A stretch of 64,000 bases of DNA from Mizuhopecten yessoensis (Eukaryota): contig NW_018405342.1 in NCBI RefSeq assembly GCF_002113885.1, positions 2,095,303-2,159,302 on the forward strand, read 5' to 3'. Numbering within the stretch: position 1 is the stretch's first letter; every line of letters starts with the position of its first letter. The position numbers are program-made. Below are positions 57,001-60,000 of this stretch, piece after piece.

Positions 57001-60000
57001 AGAAAGCTATATAGTACATACCCTGTTTCTCGTCTTACTGGGGTGGGATAAAATAGTCGTAATAATATTAATTCCCCGAATGAATAGATTACAGCTCGCT
57101 TATAAACATACATGTATTATAAATACTATTATTTGTACTTTTATAAATTTATTGGGATTTCAAACTTTCTCTGTGTCCGCAGATATATCCCTAACTTTTT
57201 ATGAAAAAAATGGTCACTGCATCATTTTTTGAATTTATTGCTATTCTTCCCATACATTTCTAATCTCTTATATCAAGTAAACGTTCGATTGCACTCAAGT
57301 TTAAATCGGAATTACTGAAATAAATCATGAAGAAACTCATATGGACATGTTAACATACAAGATAAATGACTCTTCTTGTTGGAGAGGGCATGGAAAATGA
57401 ACAAATTATACATCAGAAGGCACCGTCTCTCACGAAATGGACCAAGCAGTCTGTATAAAGATATTGATGCGTACTAGCTATCTGGTCACCAAACTGGCAT
57501 ACACAAAGCAGCAAGTGTTGCAGACACAATATAAAGTACCACGTGGAACATACCTGTATGTATACAAAACCCACCGACAAGAACATATATATAGTAAACT
57601 GCCAAAAGAGCAATGTAAACAATTATCAAATATAGTAAGAAAAATTCTATCCACAACACCTTATTAACATACAGATTTTGTTTTTTTTCTTTATAGTAAA
57701 AGTCTGTCTTTAAATCACGTGCTGATCGTATGGGGTTATGTGCTGGTCATCAGTTCGATACCCTCATGTTGTCCATTCCCATTCTCTGCCGGAGCATCAC
57801 CATTAGCAAGCTGAAACGAAAACACAAGTTATATAATAAATTATAATTCAGTGGAAATGCTTACAGATGACAGAAGAAATATTTTGCTGAGGTTAAACAC
57901 ATAACCTTTGTGTTATTGTGACACACATAGCCTTTGTGTTATTGACCCACACATAACCTTTGTGTTATTGTGACACACATAACCTTTATGTTATTGTCCC
58001 ACACATAACCTTTGTGTTATTGACCCACACATAACCTTTGTGTTATTGTGACACACATAGCCTTTGTGTTATTGACCCACACATAACCTTTGTGTTATTT
58101 TGACACACATAACCTTTGTGTTATTGACCCACACATAACCTTTGAGTTATTGTGACACACATAACCTTTGTGTTATTGTGACACACATAACCTTTTTGTT
58201 ATTGTCACTGACATTACCTTCGTGTTATTGACCCACACATAAAAAGAAGTTTAGTTGAAATAGTGATGTTTAAGATCCGACATTTTATGTAAAGGGGGAT
58301 GTTCAGGACCTCCAACCCTCTACCCCATCCCCGGGGCCGCATCTCAGTGGTGATACTCACATGGGATGATAAATGAGTGGAAGTAATCCCCGAAATATTA
58401 TACAATTTTTGTCCTGGTTGTAGAGAAACATGGTTAATCTCTGGAGAGGATACGCTAGCGGGAATACTTACATGAGGCGAAATGAAGTCAATTTCGATGC
58501 GCGTGTGAGAAAACATGCGGAAAGCTGGTATGAAGGTAAGAAGGAACAGAGTTACGGAGATGGTCAGCAGCCACTCCGAGATCGTAGACACCAGGAAAAT
58601 GGGACGCAATGTGTCCTGAAAGCAAGCGAAGAAAACATGGCCAAACGGTACCGTCTTTTGGTTATTTTGCTTTCTGCTTATTTGTTTGCATTAGTTAGCA
58701 TAATTCTAAATAGTCCTAAAAAATTGAACGAACTTCTGTCTTGCATAATTCTTTTCGTTGAAATATTCAATCTAAAATTTGTTATATAGTTTTTTAATAA
58801 TTTGAAATGAATAAAGTTATATGTGACCTGCAAAATACATGTATCAGTAAATAGCATAGTCTTGAACGTACGAAGTTATCTCCCTTCCTGCGTTAAATCG
58901 ACATTAAACGGATTTAAAAAAAAATAATCTTGTAATAAAATTTATTTCACATTTCTGACAACAGGAATAAATCTGTATCTTTGTTAAACTAAATCTGCCG
59001 TGGGATGGTCAGGCGACTGACCTACATATACTCACCCATTTGGTACCCAGACCGGCATCCCGACCCTTGTTGTACATAGTCTTGGAAACCGCGACTGATT
59101 GTGTGTAAAGGAATTATCTATATACTTATAAATAACTGAACATGACATTTTATGTATGCCTCTACAAGAAAATGAATCGAGTAATGTGATTGGTTACACA
59201 TGTCACCAGGAAATGTATCGAGGATTTTGATTGGTTAGACGTGTCATCAAGGAACTGTATCGGGGATTGTGTTTGGTTAGACGTGTCACAGGGTGACTGA
59301 CATTGACCCTCGTTTTCGTGAAGCGGTTTTCGATTGGTTATGAATAGCGATAGTTTATTCCCAGATATATCGGACGACTCCATATATTTTAACCAATGAA
59401 GAGATATTGAGAACAAGGTATATATGTGTGATCAAAAGCCGTCCTTGTGTATTTTCCATGAAGATTTTTTGGAGTTATTTTATAGATGTTTTGTATTTTT
59501 ACATCGAGACATTGATGATGATTTAGCTACTATTTCTACAGGTGTACGTTTGATTAGTAATTACAAAGACATTGGCAATCTTATTTATTTTAAAGTCTTT
59601 TTTATTATAAATATTGATCAGATACGGCCAGATTAGTGACCTTCCCGTAAAGGATACATGTGAAAAAAAGTACCGTAGACATCACACTGTTGACAATCTG
59701 ACAGATCTGTGTCACAAAGAACTCCGTCCGCCTACTTTGCTGTTTGATGACATCAAAATGACGTATTTTCCACGTGATGCCGACTTGGACCCATGCGTAC
59801 CCCATAGCAAACCCAAAACACATGAACGCGCCTGCGTAGTGAGGAGGTTTCATCGTGTCCACCTGCAGAACACCAGTATTTAATTGGTTGATGACAACTT
59901 ATAGAAATAAATAAACAAATAAATAATAAAAAAGGAAGAAATACAAAGATCGCTAATATGCTACATGTACGTACATGGCTATTTTTGATGCGTATCATTT

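What the first reader, a model, noticed from the sequence alone, without database searches (positions are those of the whole stretch)
59095..59657. U12-type minor-spliceosome intron in the DRAM-like gene
Seen: a perfect GTATCCTTT donor, branch site TTCCTTTAC (consensus TTCCTTRAC, one mismatch) close to the CAG, and no pyrimidine tract. Splicing here restores the frame exactly. Known: U12 introns are rare, often rate-limiting and frequently mis-annotated. I recall vertebrate DRAM/TMEM150 genes being minor-intron genes, which would make this an ancient conserved position, but that needs verifying. Retention reads into a stop at 59607-59605 and would lose the last transmembrane segment.
Basis: partly seen in the sequence, partly recalled or inferred. 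Interest (0 to 1): 0.65.

Follow-up and report, generated by a model that had tools for sequence, protein, structure and literature searches.

The report
U12-type intron in scallop DRAM2-like gene
One intron of a scallop autophagy-regulator gene carries the rare signals read by the minor spliceosome, at about the same place as an intron in the human counterpart gene; it is a well-formed but ordinary example of a known kind.

Summary
On the minus strand, 59657..59095 is a 563-nt, phase-1 GT-AG intron. Its donor is GTATCCTTT (9/9 to the U12 consensus, 5/9 to the U2 consensus). Its branch site is TTCCTTTAC (8/9), with the branch A 11 nt before the CAG. The window is Mizuhopecten yessoensis. NCBI's DRAM2-like protein (P0001) and the Pecten maximus orthologue (P0002) both read straight across this junction. 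The gene's other five introns in the window are U2-like. The motifs alone are not above chance in the window. At a junction fixed independently by homology, chance is about 1e-6. DRAM2/Dram2 is a published minor-intron gene in human and mouse. Human DRAM2 has a phase-1 intron after c.517 whose reference +5 base is C, as in a U12 donor. That site aligns with the scallop site exactly or one codon away. I found nothing in print for TMEM150 or DRAM1. Verdict: a real U12-type intron, probably inherited from the bilaterian ancestor. It is a new member of a known kind and of low surprise. No RNA evidence, intronIC score or orthologous genomic DNA could be obtained.

The parts
59095..59657 (-). Candidate U12-type (minor-spliceosome) GT-AG intron, 563 nt, phase 1. 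It lies between coding exons 5 and 6 of the DRAM2-like gene.
   Evidence: P0001 and P0002 read across the junction.
59649..59657 (-). 5' splice site GTATCCTTT. The exon ends ...CAT, so there is no AG at -2/-1.
   Evidence: It matches the U12 consensus RTATCCTTT at 9/9 and the U2 consensus MAG|GTRAGT at 5/9.
59105..59113 (-). Branch-site motif TTCCTTTAC. The presumed branch A is at 59106, 11 nt before the last intron base.
   Evidence: 8/9 to TTCCTTRAC. This is the only intron of the six with a motif of 7/9 or better. The next AG downstream is 24 nt from the A (sequence).
59095..59097 (-). 3' splice site CAG.
59605..59607 (-). In-frame TAA reached if the intron is retained, after 17 extra residues.
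   Evidence: ORF 59605..59898, with the end coordinate including the stop.
59164..59290 (.). A 41-nt tandem repeat, 3.1 copies, inside the intron.
59658..59862 (-). Coding exon 5 (205 nt; Val122 to the first base of Phe190). It encodes hydrophobic segments 4 and 5.
   Evidence: (100% identity to P0001 residues 121-189). Pfam Frag1 profile positions 120-175.
59036..59094 (-). Coding exon 6 (59 nt; the last two bases of Phe190 to Trp209). It is followed by a GTGAGT donor.
58472..58615 (-). Coding exon 7 (Asp210-His257). It encodes the sixth hydrophobic segment and the conserved SEW motif.
57736..57810 (-). Coding exon 8 (Leu258-Thr281 plus TAA).
60255..60403 (-). Coding exon 4 (to Gln121). It encodes the third hydrophobic segment.
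   Evidence: Pfam Frag1 profile positions 76-116.
61510..61577 (-). Coding exon 3.
   Evidence: The 3' end is deduced from the frame and the GTGAGT donor.
61915..61968 (-). Coding exon 2. Exon 1 (about residues 1-31 of P0001) was not found in the window.
   Evidence: no 8-mer of P0001 residues 1-37 matched in any of the six frames.

Best explanation
Window 59657..59095 (minus strand) is a U12-type GT-AG intron of the Yesso scallop DRAM2-like gene, a six-segment lysosomal/autophagy membrane protein of the Frag1/DRAM family.

Inferred mechanism, from established knowledge of minor splicing. The U11 and later U6atac snRNAs pair with donor positions +4 to +9 (TCCTTT). The U12 snRNA pairs with TTCCTTTAC and bulges the A at 59106. 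The CAG 11 nt downstream is chosen by its distance from the branch, not by a pyrimidine tract. Removal joins the split Phe190 codon and keeps the frame.

If the intron is retained, translation stops after 17 extra residues, the sixth membrane segment is lost, and the transcript would be expected to undergo nonsense-mediated decay.

The intron is most likely the orthologue of the minor intron of vertebrate DRAM2, and so inherited from the bilaterian ancestor.

Shown: the motifs, their geometry, the frame, use of the junction in public protein models, and the contrast with the neighbouring introns.
Inferred: actual use of the minor spliceosome, the fate of retained transcripts, and orthology with the vertebrate minor intron.
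For: - Motifs and geometry. Donor 9/9 to U12 against 5/9 to U2; branch site 8/9 at 11 nt.
- The five other introns of the gene score 6-8/9 to U2 and 3-5/9 to U12, with a best branch motif of 5-6/9.
- The exon ends CAT. Passages in PMC11347168 state four relevant things: U11 and U6atac pair with +4 to +9; the minor branch site has a defined distance constraint; G at -1 marks 'minor-like' rather than minor introns (48% vs 11%); and AG at -2/-1 blocks minor splicing.
- Junction: the exon-5 peptide finds NCBI's M. yessoensis DRAM2-like protein at 99% identity and the Pecten maximus orthologue at 71%. Both are continuous across the junction.
- Phe190 is invariant in 16 of 16 named mollusc family members.
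- Chance at a fixed junction is about 1e-6.
- Phase 1 fits the minor-intron phase pattern 1>2>0, and molluscs are relatively rich in minor introns among protostomes (PMC10639083 passages).
- Vertebrate link: Dram2/DRAM2 has a minor intron. Human variants c.518-1G>A and c.517+5C>A define a phase-1 intron in codon 173 that ends in AG and has reference C at +5.
- Six residue anchors (G95, H121, W165, Y226, R236, L246) place human codon 173 at fish Dram2b residue 174.
- That residue aligns with scallop residue 190 in 4 of 11 alignments and with residue 189 in 7 of 11.
Against: - There is no RNA evidence of any kind: no junction reads, no retention data, no sensitivity to loss of the minor spliceosome.
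- No formal classifier (intronIC or the MIDB matrices) could be run.
- The branch site has T where the consensus has a purine, which loses one U12 pair.
- The motifs alone are not enriched in the window.
- No minor snRNA gene lies in the window (0 Rfam hits). The scallop's minor spliceosome is therefore assumed from what is published for molluscs.
- Most alignments (7 of 11) put the human intron one codon upstream, not at the identical site.
- Which human DRAM2 intron is the minor one was not stated in any text I could read.
- Orthology to DRAM2 rather than DRAM1 rests on automatic names and 30% identity to fish Dram2b. Mollusc relatives carry both names.
Confidence: 0.88

Rival explanations
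1. An ordinary U2-type (major) intron whose ends happen to resemble U12 signals. U1 would use the GTATCC donor. U2AF would use the TTCCTTT run as a short pyrimidine tract, with a branch point further upstream.
For: The TTCCTTT run makes positions -3..-22 65% pyrimidine, more than in two U2-like introns of the same gene. The motifs alone occur at chance frequency in the window.
Against: The donor matches the U2 consensus at only 5/9, with T, C, C at +4 to +6, and no G at -1. The joint chance of the full donor and a correctly spaced branch motif at a given junction is about 1e-6. The homologous vertebrate gene is a documented minor-intron gene.
Confidence: 0.04
2. A dual-use or hybrid site. The U12-type intron is real, but its 3' splice site is also joined to an alternative U2-type donor by the major spliceosome, as reported for human DRAM2. 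The junction would then be only partly dependent on the minor spliceosome.
For: [quoted passage not shown] The pyrimidine-rich branch motif could bind U2AF.
Against: Between 59860 and 59095 only two GT sites reach 7/9 to the U2 donor consensus, at 59640 and 59301. Neither preserves the frame. Public protein models show only the U12-type junction.
Confidence: 0.06
3. The junction is an artefact of automatic gene prediction, and the true transcript is spliced elsewhere or ends in the intron.
For: P0001 and P0002 are predicted proteins. I saw no transcript evidence.
Against: The residues on both sides of the junction are conserved across 16 named mollusc proteins, with Phe190 invariant, and continue into fish Dram2b. 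Only this GT-AG pair reproduces that sequence. Read-through stops after 17 residues.
Confidence: 0.02

Closest known systems
The minor (U12-type) intron of vertebrate DRAM2/Dram2
   Same: The gene family is the same (Frag1/DRAM; hhalign probability 99.95% to fish Dram2b). The vertebrate gene is a published minor-intron gene. The human intron after c.517 is phase 1, ends in AG and has C at +5, like the scallop intron. The two sites coincide or lie one codon apart in alignments.
   Different: Identity of position is unresolved: 4 of 11 alignments are exact and 7 of 11 are one codon off. I could not read which human intron is listed as minor. The human 3' site is reported as dual-type, and nothing comparable is visible in the scallop. 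Orthology to DRAM2 rather than DRAM1 is not settled.
Canonical U12-type GT-AG introns in general (as catalogued in U12DB, MIDB, IAOD and by intronIC)
   Same: Extended donor RTATCCTT, a TCCTTRAC-like branch site close to the 3' end, a bias towards phase 1, and a single minor intron among several major introns in a gene.
   Different: The branch site has T at the purine position. The intron has not been scored by any of those classifiers here.
'Minor-like' and 'hybrid' introns (PMC11347168)
   Same: GT-AG termini, and a pyrimidine-rich stretch near the 3' end.
   Different: Those classes are enriched for G at -1 or AG at -2/-1 and have weaker motif scores. Here the exon ends CAT and the donor is a perfect 9/9.

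Membership tests
U12-type (minor-spliceosome) intron, GT-AG subtype | Extended 5' splice site RTATCCTT(T) at +1 to +9 | tested here: met
   GTATCCTTT at 59657-59649, 9/9.
U12-type (minor-spliceosome) intron, GT-AG subtype | Branch-site motif TTCCTTRAC | tested here: met
   TTCCTTTAC, 8/9, with T at the R position. The other five introns reach at most 6/9.
U12-type (minor-spliceosome) intron, GT-AG subtype | Short, constrained distance from the branch A to the 3' splice site | tested here: met
   The distance is 11 nt. The existence of a constraint is stated in PMC11347168. The usual range of about 10-15 nt is recalled and comes from no call.
U12-type (minor-spliceosome) intron, GT-AG subtype | No AG at exon positions -2/-1 and a poor U2-type donor | tested here: met
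   The exon ends CAT, and the U2 consensus match is 5/9. The criterion comes from PMC11347168 passages.
U12-type (minor-spliceosome) intron, GT-AG subtype | No polypyrimidine tract | tested here: inconclusive
   There is no pyrimidine run between the branch A and the CAG. However, positions -3..-22 are 65% pyrimidine because of the branch motif, and two U2-like introns of the gene score 55%.
U12-type (minor-spliceosome) intron, GT-AG subtype | The host genome encodes U11, U12, U4atac and U6atac | not testable with these tools
   There are 0 Rfam hits in the window, and no scallop genome is on hand. Molluscs are reported as relatively rich in minor introns (PMC10639083).
U12-type (minor-spliceosome) intron, GT-AG subtype | Classifier score (intronIC probability or MIDB matrices) in the minor range | not tested
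   Neither program nor its matrices were available.
U12-type (minor-spliceosome) intron, GT-AG subtype | Splicing in vivo depends on the minor spliceosome | not testable with these tools
   No RNA data were available.
Frag1/DRAM/Sfk1 family (PF10277); DRAM2 orthologue | Match to the family profile | tested here: met
   Single exons match in the correct order but below the 30.3-bit cut-off: 19.0 bits at profile positions 76-116, and 17.8 to 21.3 bits at 112-184. The full public protein P0001 carries PF10277. There are 2170 family hits at E<=1e-3.
Frag1/DRAM/Sfk1 family (PF10277); DRAM2 orthologue | Orthology to DRAM2 rather than DRAM1 or TMEM150 | tested here: inconclusive
   The names are automatic, and mollusc relatives are called both DRAM1-like and DRAM2-like. 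Identity to fish Dram2b is 30%. No labelled tree could be made.
Conserved (orthologous) minor intron shared with vertebrate DRAM2 | The vertebrate gene has a minor intron | tested here: met
   Passages in PMC6717393 (mouse Dram2) and PMC10853781 (human DRAM2).
Conserved (orthologous) minor intron shared with vertebrate DRAM2 | Same phase | tested here: met
   Both are phase 1. Human exon 7 starts at c.518, so c.517 is the first base of codon 173. In the scallop the intron splits codon 190 after its first base.
Conserved (orthologous) minor intron shared with vertebrate DRAM2 | Same alignment column | tested here: inconclusive
   4 of 11 alignments are exact (and three runs). 7 of 11 are one codon apart (hhalign, and six runs).
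Conserved (orthologous) minor intron shared with vertebrate DRAM2 | The human intron at that site is the U12-type one | tested here: inconclusive
   This is inferred only. The reference base at +5 is C, and its change to A is listed as likely pathogenic with functional evidence (PMC12859735 tables). The intron ends in AG. The database tables that would settle it are in supplements or online and were not seen.

The most novel reading that the evidence does not exclude
This is a bilaterian-ancestral minor intron kept for more than half a billion years in an autophagy/lysosome membrane protein because it acts as a dosage switch. When minor-spliceosome activity falls, the intron is retained and a stop appears 17 codons in. 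The product lacks the sixth membrane segment or is degraded, so DRAM2-like output follows minor-spliceosome activity. A smaller variant is that the site has slid by exactly one codon relative to vertebrates, which would be a rare documented case of minor-intron sliding.
Probability: 0.12. Interest if true: 0.4.

Novelty: new member of a known kind. Interest (0 to 1): 0.15.

Why it matters
It matters little beyond correct annotation. It adds one clean, probably ancestral minor intron to the mollusc catalogue. It shows that the DRAM2 minor intron probably predates the protostome-deuterostome split. Such conserved minor introns are useful markers for studies of minor-intron loss and conversion. 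The conserved C at donor position +5 also gives a simple rationale for why the human DRAM2 variant c.517+5C>A is damaging. Hundreds of minor introns are already known to be shared between vertebrates and minor-intron-rich invertebrates, so a specialist would not be surprised.

Tried and rejected
- Motif enrichment in the whole window was not significant, so it was dropped as an argument.
- Other U12-like donors in the window were judged chance matches. GTATCCTTT at 35543(+) lies in AT-rich sequence with no convincing exon upstream and no Pfam hit. ATATCCTT at 18356(-) pairs only with branch-like motifs that belong to a 37-nt tandem repeat at 12469-12658. ATATCCTTT at 1915(+) and 41650(-) were not followed up beyond.
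- The Rfam gathering scan of the window gave 0 hits.
- Pfam found nothing in the stop-to-stop ORF that contains exon 7.
- The 19-residue exon-6 peptide was too short for Pfam.
- A mammalian DRAM2 protein, wanted to place codon 173 directly, was not obtained. The profile search returned unnamed representatives. The last named search listed only fish among its best 120 of 505 hits. I bridged instead through fish Dram2b and published human residue numbers.
- The position of the human or mouse minor intron is not given in the passages I read of PMC6717393, PMC10853781 or PMC9266529. The relevant tables are supplements, which are closed.
- 'TMEM77' + 'U12', 'Mizuhopecten' + 'minor intron', 'TMEM150' + 'minor intron' and 'DRAM1' + 'minor intron' each returned 0 papers.
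No orthologous intron could therefore be inspected at the DNA level.
- I did not search with a joined translation of my own exon model. Searches used single-exon peptides or public protein records.

Full report
**What is in the sequence.**
Read on the minus strand, the flagged interval is exactly one intron.
- It starts with GTATCCTTT at 59657-59649 and ends with CAG at 59097-59095.
- It carries TTCCTTTAC at 59113-59105. The A at 59106 lies 11 nt before the last intron base.
- It is 563 nt long.
- The upstream exon (59862-59658) ends with the first base of a codon. The downstream exon (59094-59036) supplies the other two. The intron is therefore phase 1 and the frame is restored.
- Read-through gives 17 further residues and then TAA at 59607-59605.
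- The window contains no N.

**Which gene and organism.**
I searched the model exon by exon. The joined step, a search with my own spliced translation, was left out.
- The 68-residue exon-5 peptide finds NCBI's 'DNA damage-regulated autophagy modulator protein 2-like' of Mizuhopecten yessoensis (P0001, 281 aa) at 99% identity. It finds the Pecten maximus orthologue (P0002) at 71%.
- tblastn of P0001 against the window places seven coding exons on the minus strand, from 61968 down to 57736. All are 98-100% identical where they are cleanly aligned.
- The first exon, about 31 residues, is not in the window.
- Both public proteins read straight across the junction in question.
- Single exons match Pfam Frag1/DRAM/Sfk1 in the correct order but below its cut-off. 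The whole public protein carries the domain.
- Hydropathy shows the expected segments. The split codon, Phe190, lies in the last turn of the fifth segment, and the sixth segment is encoded downstream.

**Is it more than chance?**
The motifs alone are not.
- RTATCCTTT occurs 4 times in the window against 2.28 expected.
- Loose donor + branch + 3' end sets within 10 kb arise in 199 of 200 simulated sequences.

The argument is conditional. The junction is fixed independently by protein homology and is the only GT-AG pair that gives the conserved sequence. At such a fixed junction the chance of finding both the full donor (2 of 7898 GT sites) and a correctly spaced branch motif (35 of 7013 AG sites) is about 6e-7 to 1.3e-6.

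**Contrast within the gene.**

| Intron(s) | Donor(s) | U2 consensus match | U12 consensus match | Best branch motif |
|---|---|---|---|---|
| Five other introns in the window | GTGGGT, GTGAGT, GTAACT, GTGAGT, GTAAGT | 6-8 of 9 | 3-5 of 9 | 5-6 of 9 |
| Candidate | GTATCC | 5 of 9 | 9 of 9 | 8 of 9, at 11 nt |

- The exon ends CAT. Published criteria say that G at -1 or AG at -2/-1 marks major or 'minor-like' introns. They also say that U11 and U6atac pair with +4 to +9, and that the minor branch site has a defined distance from the 3' end (PMC11347168, passages).
There is none between the branch A and the CAG. But the branch motif itself is a 7-nt pyrimidine run, and two U2-like introns of this gene have weaker tracts.

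**Mechanism.**
I conclude, with confidence 0.88, that this is a U12-type GT-AG intron removed by the minor spliceosome. U11 and U6atac would pair at the donor. U12 would pair at the branch site with the A at 59106 bulged. The 3' CAG would be chosen by distance.
- The T at the purine position of the branch site costs one base pair.
- The motifs and their geometry are shown. Use of the minor spliceosome is inferred.
- Retention would truncate the protein before its sixth segment and should trigger nonsense-mediated decay (inference).
- Phase 1 fits the published phase pattern of minor introns (1>2>0). Molluscs are reported as relatively rich in minor introns among protostomes (PMC10639083, passages).

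**The link to vertebrates.**
- Mouse Dram2 and human DRAM2 are described as having a minor intron (PMC6717393 and PMC10853781, passages). The human 3' site is said to be dual-type.
- Neither text gives the position of the minor intron. Its tables are supplements that I could not open.
- Two clinical papers give exon boundaries through variant names. These are c.518-1G>A (PMC9266529, Table 2 and passages) and c.517+5C>A, likely pathogenic with functional evidence (PMC12859735, tables).
- Human DRAM2 therefore has a phase-1 intron within codon 173 that ends in AG and whose reference base at +5 is C. C is the U12 consensus at that position, where U2 donors have G. I infer that this is the minor intron.
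- No mammalian protein could be retrieved. I bridged through fish Dram2b (P0127, Sander lucioperca) instead. Published human residues G95, H121, W165, Y226, R236 and L246 are found at fish positions +1 (sequence printed). Human codon 173 therefore corresponds to fish residue 174.
- Fish residue 174 aligns with scallop Phe190 in 4 of 11 alignments: L-INS-i of 147 family members, and three runs.
- It aligns with Thr189, one codon upstream, in 7 of 11: hhalign, and six runs.
- Same phase and the same or the adjacent codon makes orthology likely. I put it at about 0.75, but it is not proven.
- For TMEM150 and DRAM1 I found no paper that pairs the name with 'minor intron'. Lists in supplements remain unseen.

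**Rivals.**
- A U2-type intron with chance resemblance (0.04) is countered by the poor U2 donor and the conditional probability.
- Dual use with an alternative U2 donor, as in human DRAM2 (0.06), finds no frame-preserving U2-like donor nearby.
- A prediction artefact (0.02) is countered by conservation on both sides of the junction in 16 of 16 named mollusc proteins and in fish.

**Novelty and score.**
This is a clean new member of a well-known kind. The junction is already in the public gene model, and the vertebrate counterpart is a known minor-intron gene. No paper in the searched library pairs 'Mizuhopecten' with 'minor intron'. Large automatic surveys probably cover it, but I could not check that. 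Interest is 0.15.

**What stayed unchecked.**
- RNA evidence.
- Classifier scores.
- The scallop's minor snRNA genes.
- Supplementary tables of the minor-intron papers.

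Noticed in passing
window 59164-59290: A 41-nt tandem repeat (3.1 copies, 82% matches) lies inside the U12-type intron, between the donor and the branch site.
   Followed up: no
window 57897-58242: A 26-nt tandem repeat (13.3 copies) lies inside the last intron of the DRAM2-like gene (58471-57811).
   Followed up: no
window 46158-46484 (-): A stop-to-stop ORF matches the Pfam FCH / F-BAR domain (E 9.3e-13, 48.8 bits, above the cut-off). This is an exon of a second gene, on the same strand, downstream of the DRAM2-like gene.
   Followed up: no
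window 38713-40698, 14064-15236, 43070-44595, 50639-51546, 19274-20007, 23447-24023: Large satellite arrays are present: 31 nt x 64, 77 nt x 15 (G-rich), 71 nt x 21, 38 nt x 24, 39 nt x 18 and 146 nt x 4. The first two explain the GC-skew excursions at 38-42 kb and 14-16 kb.
   Followed up: partly
window 35543-35551 (+); 18356 (-) with 12639 and 12602 (-); 1915 (+); 41650-41658 (-): Other U12-donor-like strings are present. The one at 35543 has no exon context. The branch-like partners of the one at 18356 are copies of a 37-nt tandem repeat. They look like chance matches.
   Followed up: partly
window 61969-64000: The first coding exon of the DRAM2-like gene (about 31 residues of P0001) is not found in the window. 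The gene probably runs off the high-coordinate end.
   Followed up: partly
window 21227-21472 (+): There is a Pfam 'male specific sperm protein' hit (24.9 bits). It lies over a 21-nt tandem repeat (21296-21403), so it is probably a low-complexity artefact.
   Followed up: no
literature, not the window: The human DRAM2 variant c.517+5C>A is listed as likely pathogenic (PMC12859735). It hits the +5 C of what I infer to be the U12-type donor. The same C is present in the scallop donor. The passages I saw do not mention the minor spliceosome.
   Followed up: partly
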